Below the pieces are notes generated by a model. The model was not told the DNA's origin. It did no database searches and was given only the letters and a program-made list of their open reading frames with translations. The translations under genes were made by a program, and so were the position numbers. From the NCBI GenBank assembly GCA_964247135.1, contig CAXTTL010000172.1, positions 1 through 10,419 of the forward strand: a DNA stretch of 10,419 bases, read 5' to 3'. Origin of the DNA: an uncultured Deinococcales bacterium. GTDB lineage: Bacteria; Deinococcota; Deinococci; Deinococcales; JAAFIG01. Positions 3 through 10,419 of this stretch are shown here, in pieces. Positions within the stretch are counted from its first letter, which is position 1; every line of letters begins with the position of its first letter.

Positions 3-1076
3 GGCATTCTGCAAGGCTTCCCAGCTTTAATTCCCTTGCTTCTGCCGCCGTTCTTGGGAATGCTTTCAGATCGCCTCGGCAAACGTATGGGCTTCCTGGC
101 GGGCGGCACGATGCTCAACGTTTTTGGCTTGCTGGTGATGATGTTTTCCCCAAGTTATGTCGTTTATTTTGCAGGTTATTTGCTGGTGCAACTCGGGAAT
201 GCGATTGCAGCCAGTCCGTATACTGCCCTGATTCCCGATGTTGTCCCCGCGAACGAACGGGGTCGTGCCAGCGGTGTGATGGGCTTTTTTCAATTGTTCA
301 GCCAAATTGCGGGCGGCGTTGTGGCGTTCACCTTGGGCGGCTCTCGAGACGGGCAGTACATCGCCATCATTGCGGTTTTAAGTATCAGCGCGGCAATCAC
401 TTACTTCAGCACCCGCGAACCCGCCAAAAAACCGAACCTCGAGGAAAAAATGAATTTGCTGGCGTTCTTTCAACCCGAATACCGCGATTTTCGTTGGGTG
501 TTCTTGACTCGAGCTTTCACGGAAACTGGTAAGTACGCGGTTCAACCCTTTCTGGCGTACTTTCTCGCCGATGTCATCGGGGTTTTTAAAATTGGCTCGC
601 TCGAGATTAAAGGCGCAGGTTTGGCACTGACCTTGTTGCTGGTGATGCTGTCGGTCACGGCGGCGCTGACGGCAGTGGTCAGCGGTGGACTCTCAGACCG
701 CATTGGCAAAAAACCTGTCGTGATGTTCGCTGGTTTTTTCATGGCAGCTTCGGCACTTGGTTTTGCCCTGGTGAAAATTTACCCGCTCGCCATCCTCATG
801 GGTTTGCTTTTCGGACTGGGTTACGGCGCGTTCGTCAGCGTGGACTGGGCGCTCGGCACAAGCGTTCTGCCCGATGAACGCCGTCATGCCAGGGACATGG
901 GCGTTTGGCACATCGCTATGGTTTTCCCGCAACTGTTTGAAGGTTTGTTCGGGCAAATTCTCGACTCGAGCAACAAAGCCAGCCACAACAGCGGTTATCT
1001 GGTTTTATTCCTGATTGCCGTGACGTTTTTCGTGCTGGGCAGTGTGTTCGTCTCGAGGGTCAGGAATGTGAAGTAG
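3..1076 (+). CDS. MFS transporter, 5'-truncated (sugar/GPH-SLC45-like)
   Basis: The frame is open from position 3 (GILQGFPALIPL...), so the true start lies upstream of the window and the track's TTG at 36 is not the start. Many hydrophobic helices. Two MFS motif-A copies, GMLSDRLGKR and GGLSDRIGKK, plus ALIPDVVP..ERGRASG. Stop TAG at 1074-1076. Confidence 0.9.
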   Translation, partial: GILQGFPALIPLLLPPFLGMLSDRLGKRMGFLAGGTMLNVFGLLVMMFSPSYVVYFAGYLLVQLGNAIAASPYTALIPDVVPANERGRASGVMGFFQLFSQIAGGVVAFTLGGSRDGQYIAIIAVLSISAAITYFSTREPAKKPNLEEKMNLLAFFQPEYRDFRWVFLTRAFTETGKYAVQPFLAYFLADVIGVFKIGSLEIKGAGLALTLLLVMLSVTAALTAVVSGGLSDRIGKKPVVMFAGFFMAASALGFALVKIYPLAILMGLLFGLGYGAFVSVDWALGTSVLPDERRHARDMGVWHIAMVFPQLFEGLFGQILDSSNKASHNSGYLVLFLIAVTFFVLGSVFVSRVRNVK

Positions 1077-1135
1077 GGGAGAGATCAATAAAAACGTTGA
1101 GACTCGAGTTATGAAAGCAGTAATTGCGCTTGCCA

Positions 1136-1253
1136 CCCTCATCCCCAACCCTTCTTGCCCCTTACGACAGCACCTTCTTGGTTTCAAGACGCACCTGACG
1201 GGCGAAACCGCTTCGGGCTTGGGGCGCTTCTCCCGCCAGGCGGGAGAAGGGAG
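1136..1253. repeat. REP-like palindromic element (CCCTCATCCCCAACCCTTCT...CCCGCC-A-GGCGGGAGAAGGG) interrupted by a 71-bp insert
   Basis: Perfect inverted repeat CTTCTCCCGCC (1227-1237) / GGCGGGAGAAG (1239-1249). The C-rich leader CCCTCATCCCCAACCCTTCT (1136-1155) resembles the widespread CCCTCACCCC..CCCTCTCCC..GGGAGAGGG intergenic repeats. The hairpin is followed by GAGCTTTGTT and may also terminate the MFS transcript. Confidence 0.7.
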
Positions 1254-1304
1254 CTTTGTTCCTCTACACGTGTAACTCGAGGGTTTCCTAACTGCTTCAC
1301 CCGC

Positions 1305-1310
1305 TAGAAT
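1305..1310 (+). promoter_or_regulatory. -10 box (TAGAAT) of a probable leaderless promoter for the peptidase gene
   Basis: TAGAAT lies exactly 6 nt before the ATG at 1317 and there is no Shine-Dalgarno. This TANNNT-N6-ATG layout is typical of Deinococcus-Thermus leaderless mRNAs. Confidence 0.7.
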
Positions 1311-1316
1311 AGCTTC

Positions 1317-2276
1317 ATGCTCGAGAATCAATCGCTGACCGCTTTGCCTGGTGTTCGGGTGGGGCATTGGACCAATCAAGTGGCTCGCACGGGTTGCACG
1401 GTCATTCTGCTGCCCAAAGGTGGCGCGACGGCTTCGGTGGAAGTCCGTGGTGGTGCGCCTGGAACGCGTGAAACGGCATTGCTCGAGCCTGATAAGAGCG
1501 TCAAGCAGGTTCATGCGCTCTTGCTGGCGGGTGGCAGCGCGTTTGGTTTGGCGGCAGCGACGGGTGTAGTGGAATTTCTCGAGGAACTTGGTGAGGGCGT
1601 GCAAACTCCTGCGGGCAAAGTGCCGATTGTGCCAACAGCGGTGATTTACGACCTGGCGGTGGGTGACGCGAAGGTGCGCCCAGATGCGGCGGCGGGTTTG
1701 GCGGCGTGCCGTGCTGCCTCGAGCGATCCTGTGCCTGGTGGTCGGCTTGGGGCTGGCACTGGTGCGATGGTCGGCAAGGTCTTCGGACTCGAGTGTGCGC
1801 AACCTGGGGGTTTGGGCAATGCGGCGCTGCGGGTGGGCGATTTTACGGTGGCGGCGTTGGTGGTTGCCAATGCCACGGGTGACATTGTCAACGATGCGGG
1901 GGAGGTGCTGGCGGGTGCGATACGACCCGACGGCTCGCGCCCTACGCGCCTGGAGTCCATTGAACGGATGTTAAAAACCGATCAAATGGCGTTTCTCGAG
2001 CATACCAACACGACCCTGGTGGCGCTTGGTACGGACGCGCCGCTAACGAAGCTCGAGTGTTACCGTTTGGCACAGGCGGCGCAAATGGGTTTGGCTCGGG
2101 GGACGCGACCTTCGCACACGCCTTTTGATGGCGATACGGCGTTTGCCTTCAGTGTTTCACCAATCGCCAGTGGCACGTCAGAAGCGCCGATTCAGGCATT
2201 GATTGCCGCCAGCCAAGAGGTGGTCATGATGGCGCTGCAAAATGCGGTTTCTGGTCATTCCCAAACTCGAGTTTAA
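1317..2276 (+). CDS. P1/DmpA-family (peptidase S58) aminopeptidase-like hydrolase, 319 aa
   Basis: Family motifs VGHWT..TGCTVIL, VRGGAPGTRET, LLAGGSAFGL, VPIVPTAVIYDL, GAGTGA, NTTL (presumed autoproteolysis/nucleophile site) and PSHTPFDGDTAFA. Confidence 0.92.
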   Translation: MLENQSLTALPGVRVGHWTNQVARTGCTVILLPKGGATASVEVRGGAPGTRETALLEPDKSVKQVHALLLAGGSAFGLAAATGVVEFLEELGEGVQTPAGKVPIVPTAVIYDLAVGDAKVRPDAAAGLAACRAASSDPVPGGRLGAGTGAMVGKVFGLECAQPGGLGNAALRVGDFTVAALVVANATGDIVNDAGEVLAGAIRPDGSRPTRLESIERMLKTDQMAFLEHTNTTLVALGTDAPLTKLECYRLAQAAQMGLARGTRPSHTPFDGDTAFAFSVSPIASGTSEAPIQALIAASQEVVMMALQNAVSGHSQTRV

Positions 2277-2296
2277 GCCTTACAGAATGAACTTCT

Positions 2297-2338
2297 TTGA
2301 CTTGGAGCTTAAAGCTTAGAGCTTGAAGCTTTTGTCTT
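2297..2338. repeat. Imperfect intergenic heptamer tandem repeat (NNNNCTT x6; core RRAGCTT x4)
   Basis: TTGACTT GGAGCTT AAAGCTT AGAGCTT GAAGCTT TTGTCTT, in exact 7-nt phase. Confidence 0.7.
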
Positions 2339-2375
2339 GCGTCGGTTTTTTGTCCGTGACCATAAACCTATCGCG

Positions 2376-2381
2376 TATACT
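2376..2381 (+). promoter_or_regulatory. Putative -10 box (TATACT) for the three-gene roadblock module
   Basis: Near-consensus TATACT 38 nt upstream of the ATG at 2420. No well-spaced -35 was found (TTGTCC at 2350-2355 is 20 nt away). Confidence 0.4.
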
Positions 2382-2419
2382 ATGAACATTAGAAGTGTCT
2401 TGAAAGCGAGCCGAAACTG

Positions 2420-3574
2420 ATGCCCAACCGTGTTTATTTAACTGTTTGTGATGCCCTGAGCAGCATTGTCTCGCGGCGTGCGGCAGAAAACATTGTGGCG
2501 GATGCCTTGCGGACTGCTGGCACAAATGCCGATAAAGTCACCGCCGGTGAGATGCAAAACTTGCTTCGCAGCACGGTGTTCGCGCGTTTGCAACAGATTA
2601 TTCCGGTGGCGCAAGCCAAAGGCGAAATTCGGGTGATCCTGAGTAAGCTCGAGGCTGGTTTCACAGAATCCAAACCGTCTATCCTCAGTCCAGAGGTGCT
2701 TGAGGGGCTTGAGGCGATCAAAGCCGAGTTTAGAATGTTTAACAATTCGGCGAACCCACGGGTGTTGCGGCTTGCCGATGGAATTGGGTCGCTCTCCAGC
2801 GCGGCTGATCCGATTCAGGCGCTCAATTTGTTGTGGGCGGAGTTGGATTTGTTGCAAGCCGAAGAGTCTGGCTTGCCGCTCAAGGGGGCGTCCTTGCAAC
2901 AGGCGCTCACCATCGATCCTGGGGCATCTGGGGTGTTTTTTCCGGACTATCAGCTTTCAAATCCAGAATTTATTTTGGACCTCGAGGCTGGCTTGACCGA
3001 AGCCGGTTTGATCGAGGCTGGCGCGGCAAAATCTCAGACGCCGACCTTGACCGAAAGCTTATGGATCAAAGATGCCACCCAAACCGATGCGCTCAGTTCA
3101 GAACACGTCGTTCTCGAGGAACCCGAGGAGGGCAATGAGGGTTTAAAGCTCGATTCAAATTCAGGGCTTCCCAGCACCTCAGTCCAACCACCCGTTGCGT
3201 CCAAGAGTGCGCGTTTAAGGGCGCAAGCCAAACTTGCCATGACGCCCGAAGAGCAAGAAAACCTGCTCTCGAGGTTTGCCTCGCAGGAGGGCGTGATTGG
3301 GGTTGCGCTCTGCTCGAGGTTTGGGCAAGTCATCATGGCGCGGCTCAATGAAGGTTCGGCTTCGCACCTTTCGAGCGTGGTGGCGGCGACGGTCATGGTG
3401 CTCGAGAAATCACGGGTGGCACGGTTATTTTATGCCCAATTCGAGAACACCAGCGCCTTTATCGCGCCTTTTGGCGACGGTATCTTAACGGTTTTGGCAA
3501 ACTCTTCGGTCAACGTTGGCAGGGTGCTGTCTGAGGTCAACGCGCTCGATCAAATCATGCTGCAAAGCACTTAA
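2420..3574 (+). CDS. Roadblock/LC7 (MglB-like) domain-containing protein, 384 aa
   Basis: The C-terminal ~105 aa (LLSRFASQEGVIGVALCSRFGQVI...LSSVVAAT...FYAQFENTSAFIAPFGDGILTVLANSSVNVGRV) match the helix-2strand-helix-3strand-helix roadblock pattern, including GV.GV.L...G and N(V/L)G. The protein also has an N-terminal helical domain and an acidic low-complexity linker. Confidence 0.8.
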   Translation: MPNRVYLTVCDALSSIVSRRAAENIVADALRTAGTNADKVTAGEMQNLLRSTVFARLQQIIPVAQAKGEIRVILSKLEAGFTESKPSILSPEVLEGLEAIKAEFRMFNNSANPRVLRLADGIGSLSSAADPIQALNLLWAELDLLQAEESGLPLKGASLQQALTIDPGASGVFFPDYQLSNPEFILDLEAGLTEAGLIEAGAAKSQTPTLTESLWIKDATQTDALSSEHVVLEEPEEGNEGLKLDSNSGLPSTSVQPPVASKSARLRAQAKLAMTPEEQENLLSRFASQEGVIGVALCSRFGQVIMARLNEGSASHLSSVVAATVMVLEKSRVARLFYAQFENTSAFIAPFGDGILTVLANSSVNVGRVLSEVNALDQIMLQST

Positions 3575-3611
3575 CACTTGTACACTCGAGCTTGTTTTAA
3601 AGGGGAAAATC

Positions 3612-3665
3612 ATGCAAACACAAAATAGGAATCAATTGTTGGGCACTGGTTGGAGGTCTTCATGA
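3612..3665 (+). CDS. Possible 17-aa small ORF (MQTQNRNQLLGTGWRSS) overlapping the next start (ATGA)
   Basis: AAGGGG at 3600-3605 lies 6 nt before the ATG at 3612. The stop TGA (3663-3665) overlaps the ATG at 3662. No homology evidence. Confidence 0.25.
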   Translation: MQTQNRNQLLGTGWRSS

Positions 3666-5626
3666 ACATGAATCAAAAATGGCTCGGTTTTATTTTGGTC
3701 GCGGGTTTGACTTTCAATTCCTTGGCTTTTGCGCAACAAGCCAAGCCAACGACCCCGCCCAGCACTCCGGCAGCCACCACGGCGGCTCTGGATTTGATCG
3801 CAGGCTATCAATCGATTGCCACCTCGCTCGAGGCAGCCCGCACATCGGTCACCTCCGACCCTCCTGGTGCTCTGGCACGGGTGCAAAGTGCGCAAAATTT
3901 GTTCAGGCGGCTCGAGCCTCAAATTGGTACGCAAAAATTGATTGATGCCGGCACGAACGCCCTGAAAAAAGCGGTTTCGACGGTCAATCAACGCAGCGCC
4001 ATCAACCTTGGGGCGCAATCGATGCTGGTCAAAAGCATTTTGCAACGCGTGATGTATGACCGTCTGTTCTCGGAAATCACCGCCGGAAAAATTCCGAGCG
4101 CCACGCGTTACGCCAACACCCTGGCGGGGGCTTTCAACATGCCTGCCGCCAGCCTGAGCACGTTAAAATCGGCTGTCAAACGCAAAGACGTCGGCAAAGC
4201 CCGTTCGATTCTCGAGTCGCAAGTCGCGGACATCATGACCAATTCCTTAAAATTGGCTCGGGACAACGTCGCCGACAAAGCAACGGCGTATCAAGCGGTG
4301 GTCCGTGCCTCGAGTCACTTTTTGATCGTTCAAGATTCGCCCAGGGTTTCTGAGGATTTGACGGTCAGCAGCTTTGCCAATGCGGTGCAGTCCATCACCT
4401 CTGGTGACGTGCCTGGGTTTAAGCAGGGCATTGCCAGTTTGCTGACCCGCACCCAAGACTTTGGCAAACGCGCTCGGGGCATTGCGCTCAGTGACTCCAA
4501 TCCTGTGGCAAGCACTGCGCCAGTGGGCACCACGCCAACCCCAGTCGCGCCCAGCAATTCAAGCAATCCGAGCAACCCGAGCAATCCGTCCACGCCAACC
4601 ATCAAGCCCACCACGCCAGCCATTGCGCCCATCACTCCGGTGGCGGCATTGCCAAGTGGGTTTAACACCATCAACGGCGAATTGGTCAAAGCTGGCATCC
4701 CAGCCGTCAGGGCGGGAGCGCTCGCCACCAGCCTCGCCAATCAGAAATTCTCGAGCTTTGGTGCTCTGCTCGACAAACTCAGCGCAACCGTCGGCGAGGC
4801 GCTGACCCAAGTCCAAAATGGCGAGGTTCAAGCGGGTCGCGCCAACCTCGAGCTTGCCAAGAATTTGTTTGATAGCAATGTCAAACCCGCACTCGAGGTG
4901 GTCAACGCAGATCAGGCGGCGCAGACCTCCAAGGTTTTTGAGGCGACAGTCAATGCCATCGGCGTCCGCTCCGTCGATGTCGCGGTTTTGTTGGGCGAAG
5001 TGGTCTCAATTAAAAACCTGTTTCAAAATGCGCAACCCGCCAACACCATGCAAAACCTGTCCGCATCGGTTCAACCCTGGTGGGCGGGAACCCTGCGCGG
5101 CATTTTGTTCTTTGTTGCCGCTTTGTTGTTCTGTTACGCGATTTACCTCTTGAACCTGGCGTTCGGCGGTAAAAACCCGTACTGGCGTTACATTGGCATT
5201 TCGATGGTTTTGCTGTTCATCCCGCCGCTGCTCGAGGGTCTGGCGTGGCTCGGTTCGGTCTTGTCGCAAACGGCTGGTTTGACCTTCCTCGATGGTTTGA
5301 GTTCGCTGTCGGTCTTGCAAAACCCGCTGGCTCAGATCGCTTGGGCAATTCTCATGATCGCGGCGGCAGCCTTTGCCACGGCTGGCTTCAGGGGCATTGC
5401 CACCCAATTCGGGCTGATTCGCAATCGCAACAACCAAACCAACATGGGCAGCGCCAATGTGTCCCCAGCCATGCTGGGCGCCGCTGGCGGCGTGGCGGGG
5501 GCGGCAGCCATGTCAAACAACCCAAGTTTAATCAATACCAGTTCTGATCTTGCCGACCCGCGCATCTCGAGCGATGTTTCGGTCAATCCTGACCGCACGA
5601 TTGTCGAATGGGACGAAGAATTTTAG
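3662..5626 (+). CDS. Uncharacterised membrane protein: signal peptide, large helical exported region with Pro/Thr/Ser linker, ~3 C-terminal TM helices, flexible tail ending VEWDEEF (~654 aa)
   Basis: GGAGG at 3652-3656 favours the ATG at 3662 (or 3668) over the TTG at 3650. MNQKWLGFILVAGLTFNSLAFA-QQ is a Sec/SPase I-type signal. Hydrophobic segments: GILFFVAALLFCYAIYLLNLAF, YIGISMVLLFIPPLLEGLAWL, IAWAILMIAAAAFATAGF. Confidence 0.85.
   Translation: MNMNQKWLGFILVAGLTFNSLAFAQQAKPTTPPSTPAATTAALDLIAGYQSIATSLEAARTSVTSDPPGALARVQSAQNLFRRLEPQIGTQKLIDAGTNALKKAVSTVNQRSAINLGAQSMLVKSILQRVMYDRLFSEITAGKIPSATRYANTLAGAFNMPAASLSTLKSAVKRKDVGKARSILESQVADIMTNSLKLARDNVADKATAYQAVVRASSHFLIVQDSPRVSEDLTVSSFANAVQSITSGDVPGFKQGIASLLTRTQDFGKRARGIALSDSNPVASTAPVGTTPTPVAPSNSSNPSNPSNPSTPTIKPTTPAIAPITPVAALPSGFNTINGELVKAGIPAVRAGALATSLANQKFSSFGALLDKLSATVGEALTQVQNGEVQAGRANLELAKNLFDSNVKPALEVVNADQAAQTSKVFEATVNAIGVRSVDVAVLLGEVVSIKNLFQNAQPANTMQNLSASVQPWWAGTLRGILFFVAALLFCYAIYLLNLAFGGKNPYWRYIGISMVLLFIPPLLEGLAWLGSVLSQTAGLTFLDGLSSLSVLQNPLAQIAWAILMIAAAAFATAGFRGIATQFGLIRNRNNQTNMGSANVSPAMLGAAGGVAGAAAMSNNPSLINTSSDLADPRISSDVSVNPDRTIVEWDEEF
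4550..4591 (+). repeat. 9-bp coding tandem repeat (Pro/Ser-Ser-Asn x4) within a P/T/S-rich linker
   Basis: CCCAGCAAT TCAAGCAAT CCGAGCAAC CCGAGCAAT CCGTCC encodes PSNSSNPSNPSNPS. Confidence 0.8.
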
Positions 5627-5690
5627 ATTTGAATAAAATTCGCTGACGCCTTTTCTTACCGTCCTCTTGTTTTGTCCGTTCGGAGAGTTG

Positions 5691-8600
5691 ATGAATCAGA
5701 TTTATCAAGCGACCCTCAAGCTTCTCGAGTCTGACCCTGACACCAAGGGTTCTCAAGCCATTCTCGATGAGGGTTTAAGCCGTTTGGGGAAAAGCCCCAC
5801 CGATGCCAATGTCCGAGAGATCGAAAAAGCCTTGAAATCCAACGTTTACCGCCAATTGCAGGTGTCTTTACCAGCCAATGCCGCCAAAGAAAAAATCCAG
5901 TCGATCTTGGCAAAAGTTGCCCTGATGGATGCGCCCGCCAGCGTCAGCCAGGCAGCCAACGCCCAAGCCGAACTTGAGCGCCAAGCGGCATTGATTGCGC
6001 CGCTCGATGCGGGACAAAAGCGTTTTACCTTGTATTTTGAATGGTCTGAGGTTCAGAAGTTTCGCAGCCAACTCAAGGTCATTCAAGAGCAGCAACAAGT
6101 CGGCAATTTGATTCCAGATTTGCTGCGCGACGCGGCACGTCAGCTCGAGCTGCTCGAGGAAAAACTGCAAGATTCCTTGGTGCGCCAAGGGCAGGACATC
6201 AACGAACTGTTGGCAGGATTTGAGCGCGTCAAAAGCATGGGCGGACCTCGGGTCAAACGGCTCGAGTCCCTGATCGGGCAGATTTCCGAATCTCAATCCT
6301 CGCAGTCGCTCGCGCCAGCCGAGGTCGAACGCGCCCGCAAGTTGGTCGTCGAGTTGCGCCGACTGGTCGAATCTTCGGTGGTGGCGGTCAGTGCAAGCCC
6401 AATCGAAGCCGAAGAAGATTCGATTGTTATCGAAGAACCTGTGGTTGCGCCGCTCGCGTCCGCGACCGGAGAAATTTTACAAATCGAATCTGCGGATGAC
6501 GACGATTTGGACATCAGTTTTGACTTTACCGAACTCGAACCCGAAGCCTCAGCCCGAATGCAGGAACTCGACCTCGCCGAAGAGCGCCGCAAACTCGAGA
6601 ACCTGGGACGCGACTACCGTGCGGTGCTCGAGGCGAGCGCCGATGCCAGCGTGGCACTCTCTGAGCTGCGGGAACGTAACAACAACAACGAACTGATCAA
6701 AGAAGACTTTGAACAGCTCAAAGCCACCCTCGAGACGCGCCACGCCGAAGAACTGCTGCGTCAACGCGAACGCATCGCGCAACTGCCCAAAGCCTTGGAA
6801 CGTTTTGCCAGCAGCGGCTTGGATGTCAAAGAGGCACGCTTGACCCTGTCCGTTGCCGAGGGCATGATCGGCTCGAACGTGTTGGCTGCCGACGAAATTG
6901 GTAAGTTAGAAGATTTGATCCGCACCTTCGAGCGCCAATTTGAGGAACGCGAACGTGCCAGACTCGAGGAACAAAGCCGGATTGAGCGTGCCCTGACCCG
7001 TCAAACCGCGACCTTGAATCAAATGCGCGAAGTGGTGCTCAGTTTCATGCCTTTGGGGCTTGACGCGATCAGCGGTTTCAACAACCGCCTTGCCGAACTC
7101 GAGCGTGACACCCAGGCGCGGGTCGTGCGTGAGGACATCACCAAAGCCCTCAGCGACGAGATGTTCAGTTTGCAACATGCGCTCGAGGCTTTGGAAACCC
7201 AAAAACGCCTTGAGGCAGAGCAAAAAGCCGAAGCCGAACGTCTGGCGCTGGCTGCCAAACTCGAGGTGGAACGCAAAGAACTCGAAGCCAAACTCGAAGC
7301 CGAACGAAAAGCGCTCGAGGAAAAAATTCGTTTGGAACGCGAAGAAGCCGAACGCAAAGCTGCTGAAAAAGCTGCCCGCGAACAAGCCGAACGCTTGGAA
7401 GCTGAACGCAAAGCTGCCGAAACGGCTGCAAGATTGGAAGCTGAACGCCTGGAAGCCGCCAAGCGCCAGATCGCCGAACGCGCCGAAGCGGAACGCAAAG
7501 AACTCGAAGCCAAGCTCGAGGCAGAACGCATCGCCGCCGCCAAACTCGAAGCAGAACGCGTTGCCGTCGCCAAACTTGAAGCCGAACGTGTCGAAACCGA
7601 ACGCTTAGCCGCCGAAAAAGCGGCGCGTGAAGCCGCCGAAAAACTCGAGATTGAGCGCCGCCAAGCCCAAGCCCGCGCCGAAGCCGAAGCCGCCGCCGCC
7701 GCCGCCAAAGCCGAAGCCGAACGCCTTGAAGCCGTGCGCCAAGCCCAACTGAGCCGCGAAACGGCGGCTTTGCGCACCTTGCGCTTTTCGCTGGCAGCGT
7801 TACCCGACCTTTCAGAAATCAGTGCCTCAATCGATGCGCTCGAAACCAGTTTTGAAACCGCCAGCAAAAAACTCGAGGCGGGCGAATTCATCACCGGCGA
7901 ACTCGAGGCATTCAAAACGAGCTTGGGCAACATTGGTCTGGAAGCCACCAAAGTCTTTGAAACCAAACTTCATAACCTCGAAGAACGCGCCAGCCAAATC
8001 AAAGCCAGCGAACTGCTCTCGGACATCAATGAGGCTCGAGAATCGCTCAAACTCGGAGAGCATCCAGACCTCAACCAACTCGAGGCATCCTTGCGGGCGC
8101 AACGCGAGGCACGTTTGAACGCCCAACGCCGCGAACTCTCCGAACTCGAGAGTGCCGTGCGCGAATACGCCGCCATCCCAGAAGCCTCTGGCTTGCTGAG
8201 CGAAATCACCAACGCCCGCGAAACCCACGAGGCGGGCAAATTGCTTGACCTTGCCAGCGCCTGGGACAAACTCGAGGATTTGCGCTTAAACGAAGAATCT
8301 GCCCTCAGCCAATGGCGTTCCAGAACCGATGCGCTGGTTGCCGAGTCCAAAGGTTACCGCGAAATGGGCGGCGAAACCATCAGGCAACTTTCACGCCTGA
8401 GCGATGCGCTCGCCGCCGAACGCAACATGAGCCGCATCACCCCAGAAACCCGCACCCGCCTCGAGAAAAACCTTGAAGAAGCCGAAGAACTGATTCTTCA
8501 CGCCCGTCAAGAGTATGCCGCCGCCAGCGCCGTGGCTGCCGCCCTCGCCGACTCGAGCCAAATCGACGACCTGCTCGGCGTGTTCTCGATGAAGCCAGTC

Positions 8601-9047
8601 GTGACCGTTAAAGTTCCCGAACCTGTCGTCATTGCCCAAACCCCAAGTGTTCCTGAAAGCCCGACCCAAGAGCACAACTCCCTCCACCAATGGCTGGCAG
8701 ACATCAGCCGCGAACGCGGCATTGGACAAACCGGCATCATTCGCAGCGACGGCACGCTCGAGGTTGGCAATGTCGCCCGCGCCAGCGAACTTGGGCATTT
8801 GCTTGCCGAAACCGAACGTTTCAACCTTGACCTCTCGAGCGAGCTGCGCCGCAAACCAGCCCGCCTTCACACCATCGAATATCAAGGTGGCGCGTTAATT
8901 GCCATGTTCATGCGCAAAAACGAAGCCGAAGCCAGCTCAAAATCGACCATTGTGATTCAACTCGAGGACATGGCAAGTTACAGCCGGATTTTTGCGCAAG
9001 CGCAACGCGATTACGATCAGTTGCTCGAGTGGGCGTTTGCAGGATAA
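5691..9047 (+). CDS. Large helical/coiled-coil protein (~1118 aa) with an N-terminal domain shared with 2420-3574, a central E/A/K/R-rich helix and a divergent C-terminal roadblock-like domain
   Basis: GGAG at 5682-5685 precedes the ATG at 5691. Alignment to the N-terminus of the 2420 ORF also supports this start over the TTG at 5667. The ORF is long, uninterrupted and rich in E/L/A/R/K. No Walker A motif or TM segment was seen. Confidence 0.88.
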   Translation: MNQIYQATLKLLESDPDTKGSQAILDEGLSRLGKSPTDANVREIEKALKSNVYRQLQVSLPANAAKEKIQSILAKVALMDAPASVSQAANAQAELERQAALIAPLDAGQKRFTLYFEWSEVQKFRSQLKVIQEQQQVGNLIPDLLRDAARQLELLEEKLQDSLVRQGQDINELLAGFERVKSMGGPRVKRLESLIGQISESQSSQSLAPAEVERARKLVVELRRLVESSVVAVSASPIEAEEDSIVIEEPVVAPLASATGEILQIESADDDDLDISFDFTELEPEASARMQELDLAEERRKLENLGRDYRAVLEASADASVALSELRERNNNNELIKEDFEQLKATLETRHAEELLRQRERIAQLPKALERFASSGLDVKEARLTLSVAEGMIGSNVLAADEIGKLEDLIRTFERQFEERERARLEEQSRIERALTRQTATLNQMREVVLSFMPLGLDAISGFNNRLAELERDTQARVVREDITKALSDEMFSLQHALEALETQKRLEAEQKAEAERLALAAKLEVERKELEAKLEAERKALEEKIRLEREEAERKAAEKAAREQAERLEAERKAAETAARLEAERLEAAKRQIAERAEAERKELEAKLEAERIAAAKLEAERVAVAKLEAERVETERLAAEKAAREAAEKLEIERRQAQARAEAEAAAAAAKAEAERLEAVRQAQLSRETAALRTLRFSLAALPDLSEISASIDALETSFETASKKLEAGEFITGELEAFKTSLGNIGLEATKVFETKLHNLEERASQIKASELLSDINEARESLKLGEHPDLNQLEASLRAQREARLNAQRRELSELESAVREYAAIPEASGLLSEITNARETHEAGKLLDLASAWDKLEDLRLNEESALSQWRSRTDALVAESKGYREMGGETIRQLSRLSDALAAERNMSRITPETRTRLEKNLEEAEELILHARQEYAAASAVAAALADSSQIDDLLGVFSMKPVVTVKVPEPVVIAQTPSVPESPTQEHNSLHQWLADISRERGIGQTGIIRSDGTLEVGNVARASELGHLLAETERFNLDLSSELRRKPARLHTIEYQGGALIAMFMRKNEAEASSKSTIVIQLEDMASYSRIFAQAQRDYDQLLEWAFAG
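7201..7745 (+). repeat. Coding repeat expansion (KLEAER / AAEKAARE units)
   Basis: A 39-bp near-identical duplication at 7268-7306 and 7490-7528 (3 mismatches). There are also a 30-bp tandem (IAAAKLEAER/VAVAKLEAER) and a repeated AAEKAARE. Confidence 0.8.
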
Positions 9048-9076
9048 AAGATGGAACTAGGACTTGGATTCTTTGA

Positions 9077-9108
9077 CCCTTCTCGCTTTCGAGAAGGGCG
9101 TTTTATTG
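9077..9108 (+). terminator. Probable intrinsic terminator of the roadblock module
   Basis: 9-bp stem CCCTTCTCG (9077-9085), loop CTTT, CGAGAAGGG (9090-9098), then CGTTTTATT. It starts 30 nt after the stop codon. Confidence 0.7.
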
Positions 9109-9131
9109 ATTGCTCGAGAATCCGTATTGTT

Positions 9132-9160
9132 TTGTCACAACTTCCCAAACGCGGTAAACT
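9132..9160 (+). promoter_or_regulatory. Sigma70-type leaderless promoter of ybaB-recR
   Basis: TTGTCA (9132-9137), 17 nt, TAAACT (9155-9160), 6 nt, ATG (9167). No Shine-Dalgarno. Confidence 0.8.
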
Positions 9161-9166
9161 GAATTC

Positions 9167-9478
9167 ATGAACATTCAAAAGCTCATGAAACAAGCGCAAA
9201 AGGCGCAACTTGCCCAAGCCGAAATGCAGGAACGTCTCGACGCCACCGCGATTGTGGGCAGTGCAGGCGGCGGCATGGTCAGCGTGACCGTCAATGGTTC
9301 GGGTGCGGTACGCGGCATCAAACTCGATAAAATGGTGGTTGACCCCAGCGATGTCGAGGCGCTAGAGGATTTGCTGCTGGTCGCCATTCAAGACGCGCAG
9401 AACAAAGCCAATGAACTCCAACAAGCCGAAGTCCAAAAAATCATGGGTGGGCTTGGTGGAATGCCAGGAATGCGATAA
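9167..9478 (+). CDS. ybaB: YbaB/EbfC family nucleoid-associated protein, 103 aa
   Basis: MNIQKLMKQAQKAQ...GSAGGGMVSVTVNG...VDPSDVEALEDLLLVAIQDA is the family signature. The gene lies directly upstream of recR. Confidence 0.96.
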   Translation: MNIQKLMKQAQKAQLAQAEMQERLDATAIVGSAGGGMVSVTVNGSGAVRGIKLDKMVVDPSDVEALEDLLLVAIQDAQNKANELQQAEVQKIMGGLGGMPGMR

Positions 9479-10090
9479 ATGAAATACCCCAACAGTTTGA
9501 TTCAACTCATCCGCGAACTCTCGAGACTCCCTGGGGTCGGACCCAAAAGCGCCCAACGGCTTGCGTTTCATCTGTTCTCGAGTTCCGATCAAGACGTCAA
9601 AAACTTAAGCGATGCGATTCTCGAGGCGAAAAAAATCTTGAAACTCTGCCCGATTTGCTTCAACATCACCGACACGGACTTGTGCGCGGTGTGCAGCGAC
9701 CCAAGCAGGGATCAGAACATCATTTGCGTGGTCGAAGAACCAGGCGATGTGATTGCGATTGAACGCAGCGGCGAGTTTGAAGGTTTGTACCACGTGCTTC
9801 ACGGCGCTCTCAGCCCAATGAACGGCGTGGGACCCGAACAAATCAAAATCGCAGGCTTGCTCGAGCGGATTCAAAACCGCGCTGGCGTTCCTGTCGAAGT
9901 GATCCTGGCGACCAGCACCACCGTCGAAGGTGAAGCCACCAGCATGTTCGTGCAACGCAGCCTCGAGCCTTTGGGCGTGAACGTCTCGAGGATCGCTTAC
10001 GGGCTGCCTGTGGGTGGGGCGCTCGAGTACGCGGATGAGGTCACGCTGGGACGGGCGATAGCGGGACGGCAGAAGGTTACGAAGATTTAA
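9479..10090 (+). CDS. recR: Recombination mediator RecR, 203 aa
   Basis: HhH motif LPGVGPKSAQRLAFHL, C4 zinc finger CPIC..CAVC, Toprim motifs CVVEEPGD, YHVLHGALSPMNGVGP, EVILAT..EGEAT and SRIAYGLPVGGALEYADEVTL. Confidence 0.98.
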   Translation: MKYPNSLIQLIRELSRLPGVGPKSAQRLAFHLFSSSDQDVKNLSDAILEAKKILKLCPICFNITDTDLCAVCSDPSRDQNIICVVEEPGDVIAIERSGEFEGLYHVLHGALSPMNGVGPEQIKIAGLLERIQNRAGVPVEVILATSTTVEGEATSMFVQRSLEPLGVNVSRIAYGLPVGGALEYADEVTLGRAIAGRQKVTKI

Positions 10091-10099
10091 AACTCGAGG

Positions 10100-10381
10100 T
10101 TAAAGGCTGTGCCAAGCATCCAAGATTGCTTTAGGGCTTCGTACTGCCACCCGCAAAAGCATTTTTGCTGCCCCACTTGGGTTTCTGCGCCCTTGCTCCC
10201 AACCTTCGACAGTACGCACCGAAACACCAAGCAGTCGTGCAAATTCGGCTCGAGGTAATTTGAGATTCTGACGAACTTCTTGCACCGATTCGATTTCACG
10301 TACCGAAACTCGGGCGGCTTTTGCCCGTCCATGAGATACTTCTACGGCTTCGAGCAAAGCACGTTTTACAGCGGTTTTCAT
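10100..10381 (-). CDS. Xre-family HTH protein (NadS/YiaG/HigA-antitoxin-like), ~93 aa
   Basis: VQEVRQNLKLPRAEFARLLGVSVRTVEGWEQGRRNPSGAAKMLL is a typical HTH_3 with WEQGRRxPSGAA. The ATG at 10381 (MKTAVKR) is preferred over the TTG at 10411 because of typical family length. Confidence 0.85.
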   Translation of the reverse strand: MKTAVKRALLEAVEVSHGRAKAARVSVREIESVQEVRQNLKLPRAEFARLLGVSVRTVEGWEQGRRNPSGAAKMLLRVAVRSPKAILDAWHSL

Positions 10382-10419
10382 AATGGTTGACGCGCCAAAC
10401 GATAACCGCAATCTAAAAA

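What the first reader, a model, noticed from the sequence alone, without database searches (positions are those of the whole stretch)
343..10254. CTCGAG behaves as a highly iterated palindrome (HIP1-like), about one per 150 bp
Seen: about 68 exact CTCGAG in 10,419 nt against about 2.5 expected for a random hexamer. Leu-Glu usage alone does not explain this. By hand about 45 are in the Leu-Glu phase, about 13 in the xxC-TCG-AGx phase (Ser-Ser/Ser-Arg, often using AGG; e.g. 1052, 3268, 3313, 9985), about 5 in the xCT-CGA-Gxx phase (using CGA; 343, 508, 2266, 8035, 10249), and 5 are intergenic (1103, 1276, 3585, 9113, 10093). Seven lie in the conserved recR gene, so the signal is in core DNA. Established: cyanobacterial HIP1 (GCGATCGC) shows the same frame-independent excess and has been linked to DNA methyltransferase sites; CTCGAG is the XhoI/PaeR7I site and contains the TaqI site TCGA. 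Inference: a genome-wide process creates or retains these sites, such as methylation-coupled repair, a DNA-uptake or recombination signal, or a nucleoid-organising protein. This would be a HIP system outside cyanobacteria. I cannot check whether it is already described for this lineage.
Basis: partly seen in the sequence, partly recalled or inferred. Interest (0 to 1): 0.85.

Follow-up and report, generated by a model that had tools for sequence, protein, structure and literature searches.

The report
Hyper-abundant CTCGAG palindrome in Deinococcales
In this uncultured relative of Deinococcus the six-letter palindrome CTCGAG occurs about every 150 bases in genes and between them, is still being actively created and preserved, and has reshaped codon use and proteins, making it a denser counterpart, in another phylum, of the unexplained cyanobacterial HIP1 repeat.

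Summary
Observation confirmed exactly: 68 CTCGAG in the window (2.5 expected), split 45/13/5 over the three frames plus 5 intergenic. It is genome-wide (33,925 sites in 5.09 Mb, 1 per 150 bp, the commonest hexamer) and family-wide (19 of 19 genomes, five genera of an uncultured Deinococcales family). The excess survives synonymous-codon shuffling (7.2x) and is strongest between genes (37-60x).

Comparison with a congener shows an ongoing directional force. Sites arise 4-12x faster and are lost 5-10x slower than matched synonymous changes. One bias, S about 3.7, fits four codon classes and intergenic DNA. rRNA, tRNA and mobile DNA carry fewer sites.

The methylase idea found no support. No XhoI-type endonuclease or its methylase, no Vsr and no RecC appeared in any of the 19 genomes; MutH appeared in 2. 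No methylase is shared by all.

Instead, half of all other palindromic hexamers are almost purged (GAGCTC 0 sites, GGCC 380), and resident restriction systems match them.

Best reading: a HIP-like word kept up by a site-favouring drive in recombination, repair or DNA uptake. Direct selection for a protein-binding site is the main rival.

This scan had already reported the phenomenon on another piece of this genome, on two other genomes and on a phage. I found no paper describing it.

The parts
343..10254 (.). Array of 68 CTCGAG sites, about 1 per 153 bp; the site is its own reverse complement
   Evidence: coordinates of all 68; frame of each
3..1076 (+). MFS transporter gene (5' end cut by the window) with 6 sites: 2 CTC|GAG, 2 xxC|TCG|AGx, 2 xCT|CGA|Gxx
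1103..1108 (.). Intergenic site at the edge of a dispersed REP-like repeat
1276..1281 (.). Intergenic site at the other edge of the same repeat
1317..2276 (+). Peptidase S58 gene with 8 sites
2420..3574 (+). 384-aa ORF of no known family, with 6 sites
3585..3590 (.). Intergenic site
3650..5626 (+). 658-aa ORF of no known family, with 9 sites
5667..9047 (+). 1126-aa ORF of no known family, with 26 sites (23 read as Leu-Glu)
9113..9118 (.). Intergenic site
9479..10090 (+). recR with 7 sites. Four recode conserved residues (Leu-Ser-Arg, Val-Ser-Arg, two Leu-Glu). Three go with amino-acid replacement relative to Deinococcus (Phe-Glu-Gln to Phe-Ser-Ser, Leu-Pro to Leu-Glu, Leu-Asp to Leu-Glu). No length change.
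10093..10098 (.). Intergenic site between recR and the HTH gene
10100..10417 (-). HTH (Xre-type) gene, cut by the window end, with 1 site

Best explanation
CTCGAG is a genuine, lineage-wide highly iterated palindrome of an uncultured Deinococcales family. It is held at about one site per 150 bp by a continuing fixation bias that acts on the DNA word itself, not on a peptide, an RNA or a larger repeat. Any allele that completes the hexamer is favoured by a scaled advantage S of about 3.7. This holds whichever of the tested positions changes, for transitions and transversions alike, in all three reading frames and between genes. Purifying selection on rRNA, tRNA and proteins holds the word back, and DNA that looks recently acquired lags behind. 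All of that is shown. Inferred: the engine is most likely a molecular drive. A site-reading, probably dimeric, factor in DNA uptake, homologous recombination or heteroduplex repair would preferentially transmit or copy the strand that carries CTCGAG (biased gene conversion). The engine is probably not a classical XhoI-type restriction-modification system or a methyl-directed MutH/Vsr repair. The word coexists with the opposite treatment of most other palindromic hexamers, which resident restriction systems have nearly purged. I put about 0.97 on 'real HIP-like word kept up by a directional DNA-level force' and about 0.5 on 'the force is a recombination, repair or uptake drive'.
For: Scale: 33,925 sites, 24.8x, the commonest hexamer. 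19 of 19 family genomes carry 4.3-6.8 sites per kb.

Not codon usage: 7.2x over synonymous shuffling. Intergenic density is 1 per 131 bp, 37x a zero-order and 60x a first-order Markov expectation with sites masked. Leu before GAG is CTC in 91.5% of cases (15% elsewhere). Glu after CTC is GAG in 93.7% (32.5% elsewhere). The Leu-Glu dipeptide is at O/E 2.38, the highest of all dipeptides.

Directional force: I compared 566 kb aligned with congener G005 at 86% identity. 3,069 of 3,916 G000 sites (78%) and 3,069 of 3,609 G005 sites (85%) are shared, against 45% for all hexamers. Two-state reversible rates with bootstrap gave S = 3.70 [3.53-3.91] for Glu (position 6), 4.23 [4.05-4.41] for Leu (position 3), 3.67 [3.45-3.92] for Arg (position 5) and 3.59 [3.27-3.95] for Ser (position 4). 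Gain ratios were 4.1, 12.4, 8.6 and 4.9. Loss ratios were 0.10, 0.18, 0.22 and 0.13. Glu and Ser match the textbook fixation-bias prediction (gain 3.7-3.8, loss 0.09-0.10). ln(37-60) = 3.6-4.1 from intergenic DNA agrees independently.

Transversions are favoured too. Before a conserved GAG, CTG, CTA and CTT are CTC in the partner in 71% (n=35), 85% (n=13) and 92% (n=95) of cases, against 10-21% in control contexts.

A constant S at near-saturation (77% of all Leu-Glu are sites) is what a per-site conversion bias predicts. A saturating cellular function predicts it less well (inference).

Sites arise by substitution, not insertion (recR).

Constraint and residence time matter. 23S rRNA of G011 has 1 site in 2,933 nt against 18-22 in 3 kb of flanks. 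66 predicted tRNAs hold 10 sites against 34 expected, with flanks at 10.9 per kb. Conjugative T4SS, plasmid RepA and Mu-like transposase regions have 2.4-3.2 per kb against 6.7 overall.

Short-range interference: P(site | Leu-Glu) is 0.41 at 7-12 bp from another site, 0.70 at 18-24 bp and 0.85 at 75-200 bp.

Methylation and restriction routes not found.
Against: I identified no protein that reads the site.

Divergence data cannot separate biased conversion from natural selection; both give gain up and loss down.

The Leu and Arg classes show gain and loss both 2-3x above the simple model.

MAGs are binned partly by k-mer composition, so truly foreign DNA without sites may have been excluded from the assembly.

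Methylase specificity cannot be read from sequence. G000 is 84% complete. Methylase families other than the five searched are untested.

In a sister family, genome G027 has the octamer GCTCGAGC as its commonest 8-mer together with an XhoI-linked-type methylase that looks orphan. This keeps a methylation link alive for the wider clade.

Published HIP1 work argues for selection rather than neutral biased repair (Xu et al. 2018, abstract).
Confidence: 0.5

Rival explanations
1. Direct natural selection for a chromosomal function. CTCGAG would be the binding site of an abundant dimeric DNA-binding protein (nucleoid organisation, compaction or protection of a stress-exposed genome), and each site would add a small fitness benefit.
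For: Sites are conserved far above background. Intergenic flanks show a weak, symmetric extended preference: A at -3 in 43% and G at -1 in 34%, mirrored by C at +1 in 36% and T at +3 in 43% (n=4,150). This fits a dimer contacting more than 6 bp. Exclusion within about 25-50 bp and variance/mean of 0.79-0.83 in 50-300-bp windows resemble a footprint. Xu et al. 2018 reach this reading for HIP1 (abstract).
Against: The marginal S is still about 3.7 at 34,000 sites and 77-95% occupancy, with no sign of diminishing returns beyond 50 bp. Density is highest in the least constrained DNA rather than evenly spread. There is no periodicity up to 1.2 kb. Plasmid-like and conjugative DNA also carries about 10x the chance level. 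No candidate protein is known.
Confidence: 0.25
2. Methylation-coupled mismatch repair, as in Elhai's model for HIP1. An orphan methylase would mark CTCGAG, and a methyl-directed nickase would bias repair so that sites are protected and accumulate.
For: This is the leading published model for HIP sequences (Elhai 2015, abstract and section 3.4 passages). HIP1 boosts transformation only when methylated (Kamoku and Nielsen 2024, abstract). Sister-family genome G027 combines an octamer GCTCGAGC HIP with an XhoI-linked-type methylase and no XhoI-family endonuclease.
Against: In the family itself the XhoI-linked methylase type was found in 0 of 19 genomes, Vsr in 0 of 19 and MutH in 2 of 19. Closed genome G011 has no N6_N4 methylase, one C5 and two D12. 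Its C5 and one of its D12 have no orthologue in G000. In G000 six methylases pair with a linked endonuclease or close homologue pointing to avoided words (GGCC, CCGCGG, CCSGG, GAGCTC/GRGCYC, CAGCTG) or, for one, an unassigned NotI-like enzyme. Protecting existing sites alone predicts lower loss but normal gain, whereas gain is 4-12x up. There is no deamination-type hotspot: the variants at positions 1, 2 and 3 number 114, 120 and 91.
Confidence: 0.12
3. An XhoI-type restriction-modification system, or its legacy, shapes the count.
For: CTCGAG is a classical type II target. The genome is rich in type II systems.
Against: Restriction pressure depletes targets, as seen here for 32 of 64 palindromic hexamers and for CTCGAG itself in the Deinococcus-like family f3 (128-457 sites per 4-5 Mb). 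Here the word is 25x enriched. The XhoI family was found in 0 of 19 genomes.
Confidence: 0.02
4. By-product of codon, dipeptide or base composition, or of avoiding other palindromes.
For: 61% of coding sites read Leu-Glu. The order-4 Markov O/E is only 1.24.
Against: The word is 7.2x over synonymous shuffling and 17x over whole-codon shuffling, and the intergenic enrichment is the strongest. Codon choice is conditional on the neighbouring codon. The alternatives to CTC-GAG contain no avoided palindrome. The Markov-4 figure is circular.
Confidence: 0.01
5. Spread of a tiny mobile element or 6-bp insertion footprint (MITE/REP-like).
For: The genome carries REP-like repeats, and two window sites flank one.
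Against: No conservation beyond weak preferences at +/-1 to 4. In recR the 7 sites align codon for codon with non-site codons of relatives, with no indel (609 nt in all 6 same-genus genes). The gain events seen between species are point substitutions.
Confidence: 0.02

Closest known systems
HIP1 (GCGATCGC) and the alternate HIPs of cyanobacteria
   Same: A short GC-rich palindrome that is hyper-abundant across a lineage, in all frames and between genes, is conserved between species above background, is under-represented in structural RNA and foreign-looking DNA, and has a function unresolved after decades. HIP1 is 15-300x over-represented (Xu 2018 abstract); here the figure is 25-60x.
   Different: A hexamer, not an octamer. 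About 1 per 150 bp, against about 1 per 1,000 bp for HIP1 and alternate HIPs (Elhai 2015 passage). A different phylum. No cognate orphan methylase found, whereas HIP1 has DmtA and DmtC (Rodriguez-Cruz 2026 abstract). Strong enough to make Leu-Glu the most over-represented dipeptide. The 10-90-kb periodicity could not be tested on a fragmented MAG.
GCTCGAGC in sister-family genome G027
   Same: Same core word, same order of bacteria, GC about 52%.
   Different: There 69 of 87 CTCGAG sites in a 79-kb sample carry the G...C extension (2,645 of 3,131 genome-wide). That gives 1 per 1.1 kb, the commonest 8-mer. A methylase 63% identical to one linked to an XhoI-family endonuclease is present. It looks like a classical HIP1-type arrangement, unlike the window's family.
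DNA uptake sequences (Neisseria DUS, Pasteurellaceae USS); recalled, no call
   Same: Lineage-specific words spread through core genes by a transmission bias (uptake plus recombination), tolerated in coding frames. HIP1 is now proposed to act this way (abstract).
   Different: DUS and USS are 9-12 nt, not palindromic, and occur about once per kb. No uptake receptor has been identified here. With dozens of sites per fragment, one more site should add little to uptake.
Very-short-patch repair enrichment of CCWGG in E. coli (Dcm/Vsr); recalled, no call
   Same: A repair bias that raises the count of a methylase target and lowers that of its deamination product.
   Different: Vsr was not found in 0 of 19 family genomes. 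The bias here acts on transversions and on the T position as well. One-off variants are not depleted (O/E 0.5-1.7 apart from the CTAG-containing one).
Chi sites; recalled, no call
   Same: An over-represented 'self' word that modulates recombination. This was suggested for HIP1 by Kamoku and Nielsen (abstract).
   Different: Chi is asymmetric and strand-skewed and needs RecBCD or AddAB. RecC was found in 0 of 31 genomes searched. AddAB was not searched.

Membership tests
Highly iterated palindrome (HIP) in the sense of HIP1 and alternate HIPs | Short GC-rich palindrome over-represented by an order of magnitude or more genome-wide | tested here: met
   33,925 sites; O/E 24.8 (order 0), 35.2 (order 1), 14.4 (order 2)
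Highly iterated palindrome (HIP) in the sense of HIP1 and alternate HIPs | Excess independent of reading frame and present in non-coding DNA | tested here: met
   5.7x, 13.1x and 11.5x over synonymous shuffle in the three frames; intergenic 37-60x
Highly iterated palindrome (HIP) in the sense of HIP1 and alternate HIPs | Shared by a whole lineage and conserved in position above background | tested here: met
   19 of 19 family genomes; 78-85% of sites shared against 45% of all hexamers at 86% identity
Highly iterated palindrome (HIP) in the sense of HIP1 and alternate HIPs | A DNA methyltransferase specific for the word or its core is present, usually orphan (Elhai 2015) | tested here: inconclusive
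   XhoI-linked methylase type found in 0 of 19 genomes. No methylase common to G000 and closed G011 except the one linked to a SacI-like endonuclease. Specificity cannot be proven from sequence, and other methylase families were not searched.
Highly iterated palindrome (HIP) in the sense of HIP1 and alternate HIPs | Quasi-periodic distribution at 10-90 kb (Xu 2018) | not testable with these tools
   The longest G000 contig is 115 kb. Only scales up to 1.2 kb were examined: no periodicity, exclusion below about 50 bp.
HIP1 proper | Sequence GCGATCGC, cyanobacterial host | tested here: not met
   The word is CTCGAG in Deinococcales. CGATCG has only 47 sites in G000.
XhoI/PaeR7I-type restriction-modification target | Cognate endonuclease and methylase encoded in the genome | tested here: not met
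   PF04555 found in 0 of 19 family genomes and 1 of 12 others; linked methylase type in 0 of 19
DNA uptake sequence (DUS/USS) | Word biases uptake or transformation through a specific receptor | not testable with these tools
   No cultured member.
Chi-type recombination hotspot | RecBCD or AddAB present; word is asymmetric and strand-skewed | tested here: not met
   RecC family found in 0 of 31 genomes. A palindrome cannot be oriented. AddAB was not searched.
REP/MITE-type dispersed repeat | Word is part of a longer conserved unit | tested here: not met
   Flanks show at most 43% preference at any position

The most novel reading that the evidence does not exclude
The family runs a two-sided sequence 'barcode' of self. 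More than thirty palindromic hexamers are kept almost absent, so that resident and transient restriction enzymes can cut anything foreign. One palindrome is written into all resident DNA by a methylase-independent, site-specific gene-conversion or uptake drive of constant strength (S about 3.7). This makes kin DNA instantly recognisable for uptake, recombination or repair. It would be the densest known genomic signature word and a sequence-writing mechanism with no characterised enzyme.
Probability: 0.25. Interest if true: 0.9.

Novelty: new variant of a known kind. Interest (0 to 1): 0.8.

Why it matters
HIP1 has resisted explanation for three decades, partly because it was thought confined to one phylum and always tied to its methylases. 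Here an independent, about seven-fold denser system exists in Deinococcales. It offers graded relatives in one order: 25x hexamer, 5x hexamer, an octamer form with a methylase, and active avoidance. The force can be measured (S about 3.7, gain up and loss down). This gives a comparative handle for finding the responsible factor by phylogenetic profiling, and a direct test of whether methylation is essential to such words.

It also shows a non-coding DNA-level force rewriting proteins: Leu-Glu at 2.4x, and residue replacements in recR. Practical consequences follow. The word and the palindrome purge form a strong binning and host-assignment signature. XhoI should shred this DNA, while SacI and HaeIII-type enzymes should barely cut it. 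If the word works like HIP1 in transformation, it would be the first thing to put on vectors for these uncultured relatives of Deinococcus.

Tried and rejected
1. The 'orphan' N6_N4 methylase between fabF and alaS on C36 turned out to be a close M.PvuII homologue (PDB 1boo, E 1.5e-149). It was found in only 4 of 18 other family genomes, so I rejected it as the HIP methylase.

2. The C207 methylase with a weak NotI-like neighbour has orthologues of about 80% identity in only 4 genomes, and its neighbour gave no useful PDB hit. Rejected as universal.

3. The XhoI-linked methylase of G021 and its G027 orthologue, used as probes, found 30 of 151 genomes, none in the family.

4. The SacI-like endonuclease as a possible common factor was found in 10 of 18 other family genomes, two of them with an in-frame stop, and in 0 of 37 genomes of family f2. 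It is patchy.

5. MutH, Vsr and RecC profiles gave 2 of 31, 1 of 31 and 0 of 31 genomes.

6. A model that only protects existing sites, through better mismatch repair at sites, is rejected because gain rates are raised.

7. I looked for nucleosome-like regular spacing. The pair correlation is flat from 60 to 600 bp.

The densest of the 80 loci kept were 63-70% GC phages that also carry GAGCTC and GGCC, so they are not like this family. It says nothing about phages of this family.

9. C1:1-20000 has no match in five congeners at E<=1e-150 but still has 5.8 sites per kb, so it is not a clean 'recent import' control.

10. Rfam found nothing in the window.

11. NCBIfam and Pfam found nothing for the three large window ORFs.

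12. A dicodon-preserving shuffle was not run. It preserves the CTC-GAG dicodon by construction and cannot test frame 0.

13. Sequencing-run and read-laying tools, structure prediction and complex prediction were not used.

Full report
**Observation.** The window holds 68 exact CTCGAG, against 2.54 expected (maximum 7 in 200 dinucleotide-preserving shuffles). With the ORFs, the sites split into 45 CTC|GAG, 13 xxC|TCG|AGx, 5 xCT|CGA|Gxx and 5 intergenic, with 7 in recR.

The window is contig C172 of a 5.09-Mb, 386-contig assembly that is 84% complete. RecR is 96-98% identical to MAGs titled 'Deinococcales bacterium' and 68-73% identical to Deinococcus species.

**Scale.** The genome has 33,925 sites, one per 150 bp, which is 24.8x the zero-order expectation. 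CTCGAG is the commonest of all hexamers. Markov O/E values are 35.2, 14.4, 3.45 and 1.24 for orders 1-4. The collapse at high order is circular, since 87.6% of CTCGA pentamers already belong to the word.

No contig has fewer than 2.56 sites per kb and no 5-kb window has fewer than 8. All 18 other genomes of the same family (five genera, one of them a single contig) have 12,028-35,442 sites, or 4.3-6.8 per kb. The 12 genomes sampled from the other four families of the order have 128-7,001.

**Not codon usage.** I used a crude longest-ORF gene call (4,513 ORFs, 87.7% of the DNA). Coding DNA holds 29,037 sites (17,743 / 4,560 / 6,734 by frame). Shuffling synonymous codons within each gene predicts 4,043 (3,112 / 348 / 584), and shuffling whole codons predicts 1,715. 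The print label swaps the last two frames; the order given here is the right one.

DNA outside ORFs is the densest of all: 4,806 sites in 631 kb, one per 131 bp. That is 37x a zero-order and 60x a first-order Markov expectation computed with the sites masked.

Codon choice depends on the neighbouring codon. Leu before GAG is CTC in 91.5% of cases (15% elsewhere). Glu after CTC is GAG in 93.7% (32.5% elsewhere). Leu-Glu is the most over-represented dipeptide, at O/E 2.38.

In recR, four of the seven sites recode conserved residues (Leu-Ser-Arg, Val-Ser-Arg, two Leu-Glu). Three go with residue replacements relative to 16 orthologues outside the family (Phe-Glu-Gln to Phe-Ser-Ser, Leu-Pro to Leu-Glu, Leu-Asp to Leu-Glu). 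There is no indel. Those 16 orthologues carry CTCGAG at 2 of 112 homologous places.

**A measurable, ongoing force.** I fetched 800 kb of congener G005, taken from seven of its longest contigs and chosen by length only. I aligned it to G000 with blastn and kept 223 of 277 HSPs, dropping those under 400 bp or overlapping a better one. This left 566 kb at 86% identity, with positions within 3 nt of an indel excluded.

Of 3,916 aligned G000 sites, 3,069 (78%) are sites in G005. Of 3,609 G005 sites, 3,069 (85%) are sites in G000. Only 45% of all hexamers are unchanged. The one-step variants are mainly transitions and are spread evenly over the three half-site positions (114, 120, 91).

For four synonymous classes I fitted a two-state reversible model, inside and outside the site context, on 167,512 codon triplets.

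| Class (site position) | S [95% bootstrap] | Gain ratio | Loss ratio |
|---|---|---|---|
| Glu GAA/GAG (6) | 3.70 [3.53-3.91] | 4.1 | 0.10 |
| Leu CTN (3) | 4.23 [4.05-4.41] | 12.4 | 0.18 |
| Arg CGN (5) | 3.67 [3.45-3.92] | 8.6 | 0.22 |
| Ser TCN (4) | 3.59 [3.27-3.95] | 4.9 | 0.13 |

No bootstrap interval for a ratio includes 1. Glu and Ser match the classical fixation-bias expectation for that S (gain 3.7-3.8, loss 0.09-0.10). Leu and Arg turn over 2-3x faster than predicted. The intergenic enrichment, ln(37-60) = 3.6-4.1, gives the same number independently.

Transversions are driven as well. Before a conserved GAG, CTG, CTA and CTT are CTC in the partner in 71%, 85% and 92% of cases (n = 35, 13, 95), against 10-21% in control contexts.

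So one parameter describes a force that favours completion of the hexamer wherever it can occur. A model in which sites are merely shielded from mutation is excluded by the raised gain rate.

**Limits of the force.**
- The 23S rRNA gene of the closed family genome G011 has 1 site in 2,933 nt, while its 3 kb of flanks have 18 and 22.
- In G000, 66 aragorn tRNAs hold 10 sites where 34 would be expected. Their 100-bp flanks have 10.9 per kb.
- The lowest-density windows include a conjugative T4SS region (2.67 per kb), a plasmid RepA region (3.2), a Mu-like transposase (2.4) and a sugar-use cluster (2.4). All are still about ten times chance.
- Sites interfere at short range. A Leu-Glu is a site with probability 0.41 at 7-12 bp from another site, 0.51 at 12-18, 0.70 at 18-24 and 0.84-0.86 at 75-200 bp. 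A spacing of exactly 6 never occurs.
- Variance/mean is 0.79-0.83 in 50-300-bp windows. The pair correlation is flat from 60 to 600 bp, so there is no periodicity at this scale.
- Intergenic flanks show a weak symmetric preference of the form AAG-CTCGAG-CTT, with at most 43% at any position.

**The other half of the picture.** Of the 64 palindromic hexamers, 32 have O/E below 0.15 and 10 below 0.02. The figures for non-palindromic hexamers are 304 and 38 of 4,032, most of the latter containing GGCC. Examples: GAGCTC 0 sites, GGGCCC 1, CGGCCG 3, AGGCCT 4, CGTACG 5, GGATCC 7, CCGCGG 11, CAGCTG 15. GGCC has 380 sites (O/E 0.016). CCSGG has 856 against 12,875 expected. The G005 sample shows the same pattern, with r = 0.94 on log O/E.

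G000 encodes matching type II systems:
- an NgoPII-family endonuclease with a C5 methylase;
- an Eco29kI-family endonuclease with a C5 methylase;
- an MvaI/BcnI-family endonuclease with an N6_N4 methylase, beside ftsZ;
- a SacI-like endonuclease with a D12 methylase;
- a close M.PvuII homologue;
- a weak NotI-like pair.

The specificities attached to those family names (GGCC, CCGCGG, CCSGG, GAGCTC, CAGCTG) are recalled, not computed. These systems are patchy within the family.

**The methylase lead.**
- The XhoI endonuclease family was found in 1 of 31 genomes, a Thermus-like one, and in none of the 19 of the family.
- The N6_N4 methylase next to that endonuclease has 61-72% orthologues in 30 of 151 genomes of the order: f1 0 of 18 plus G000, f2 1 of 37, f3 0 of 36, f4 13 of 23, f5 16 of 36.
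- In five well-assembled family genomes the N6_N4 family hits 4 of 5 (none in closed G011), C5 hits 5 of 5 and D12 hits 5 of 5.
- G011's C5 methylase sits with HD-CE and ORC/CDC6-like genes. It and one of G011's D12 methylases have no orthologue in G000; the best tblastn match is 32%.
- Vsr was found in 0 of 19 family genomes, MutH in 2 of 19 and RecC in 0 of 31.

I therefore found no reader or writer of CTCGAG. Incompleteness of MAGs and unsearched methylase families limit this negative.

**Relatives.** I counted the octamer GCTCGAGC in 151 genomes of the order.
- The family has 838-4,448 copies, with the reversed control near zero.
- Family f3 (35 genomes of one genus, Deinococcus-like by size and GC) has 6-199.
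- Genus g9 of f5 has 4-19.
- Several f2 genera are high, with a low control.

Samples were analysed.
- G019 and G147 (f2) have CTCGAG at about 5x.
- G020 (f3) has it at 0.1x.
- In G027 (f2, GC 51.6%), 69 of 87 CTCGAG sites carry the G...C extension, which makes GCTCGAGC the commonest 8-mer at one per 1.1 kb. Genome-wide the counts are 2,645 of 3,131.

G027 is also the only f2 genome with the XhoI-linked-type methylase. There it is flanked by an asparaginase gene and an unknown 209-aa ORF on a 2.5-kb contig. That looks like a classical HIP1-type arrangement and contrasts with the window's family.

**Interpretation.** What is shown is a DNA-level directional force of uniform strength acting on the hexamer. 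I favour a drive (0.5): biased gene conversion, heteroduplex repair or uptake. Four observations support this. The marginal advantage is still about 3.7 at near-saturation. It is the same in every sequence class. It is highest where constraint is least. It also acts on mobile DNA. A per-event copying bias predicts all four, and a saturating cellular function predicts them less well.

Direct selection for a binding site (0.25) explains the symmetric flanks and the short-range exclusion equally well, and it is what Xu et al. concluded for HIP1. The methyl-directed model (0.12) lacks its enzymes here. Divergence data cannot separate conversion from selection.

**Literature.** Full-text searches found nothing for CTCGAG with 'highly iterated palindrome', with Deinococcus and palindrome, or with over-represented, palindrome and genomes.

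For HIP1 I saw:
- the abstract and passages of Elhai 2015 (PMC4390886);
- the abstract and outline of Xu et al. 2018 (PMC5861425);
- the abstract and outline of Rodriguez-Cruz et al. 2026 (PMC13756078);
- the abstract and outline of Kamoku and Nielsen 2024 (bioRxiv 10.1101/2024.09.10.611283).

Supplements were closed. What I say about DUS/USS, Chi, Dcm/Vsr and enzyme specificities is recalled.

**Earlier notes of this scan.** The same phenomenon had already been reported on another piece of this genome, on two other genomes and, more weakly, on a groundwater phage. My results agree with them. They add the rate analysis, the uniform S, the interference, the palindrome purge with its restriction systems, the negative methylase survey and the G027 octamer.

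Noticed in passing
whole genome G000; in the window, no GAGCTC and no GGCC-containing palindrome: Extreme purge of palindromes. 32 of 64 palindromic hexamers have O/E below 0.15 (GAGCTC 0 sites, GGGCCC 1, CGGCCG 3, GGATCC 7). GGCC has 380 sites in 5.09 Mb. CCSGG is at 0.07x while CCWGG is normal. GGGCTC/GAGCCC at 0.003x suggests the avoided word is GRGCYC rather than GAGCTC alone.
   Followed up: partly
G000 contigs C14, C178, C189, C207, C320, C36 (loci L093-L099): Six type II restriction-modification loci sit among housekeeping genes (one next to ftsZ/ftsA). They carry native CTCGAG density (22-40 sites per 3-5.5 kb) and match the most avoided words. The SacI-like endonuclease has an in-frame stop in G003 and G011.
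   Followed up: partly
window 1110-1290: The intergenic stretch between the MFS and peptidase S58 genes is a dispersed REP-like repeat. It has dozens of 72-98% matches on many contigs of all five congeners. Earlier notes of the scan describe REP/RAYT elements in this genome.
   Followed up: no
window 2420-3574, 3650-5626, 5667-9047: Three consecutive large ORFs (384, 658, 1126 aa) have no Pfam or NCBIfam family. They are conserved at 86-88% DNA identity in congeners and lie upstream of ybaB-recR.
   Followed up: partly
G027 (loci L222, L372-L376): This sister-family genome has the octamer GCTCGAGC as its commonest 8-mer (1 per 1.1 kb). It also has an apparently orphan methylase of the type linked to an XhoI-family endonuclease elsewhere. 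This is a HIP1-like arrangement worth its own report.
   Followed up: partly
families f3 (35 genomes of genus g7) and f5 genus g9: These relatives strongly avoid (G)CTCGAG(C): 4-199 copies of the octamer, and CTCGAG at O/E 0.1 in G020. The same word is therefore enriched 25x in one family and purged in its neighbours.
   Followed up: partly
G000 C75:9800-18000 and C42:10000-22700: A conjugative type IV secretion region (TraG/VirB4-like, coupling protein) and a plasmid-type RepA region have less than half the genome's site density. They are probably an integrated or co-binned mobile element.
   Followed up: partly
G011:C1:4980000-4986500 (L388): A C5 DNA methylase is flanked by HD-CE and ORC/CDC6-like ATPase genes beside ftsW. 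This is a possible defence module of unknown specificity, and G000 has no orthologue.
   Followed up: partly
window 9167-9478: The ybaB/ebfC nucleoid-protein gene (312 bp) is the only ORF of the window without a CTCGAG site; about 2 would be expected at the local density.
   Followed up: no
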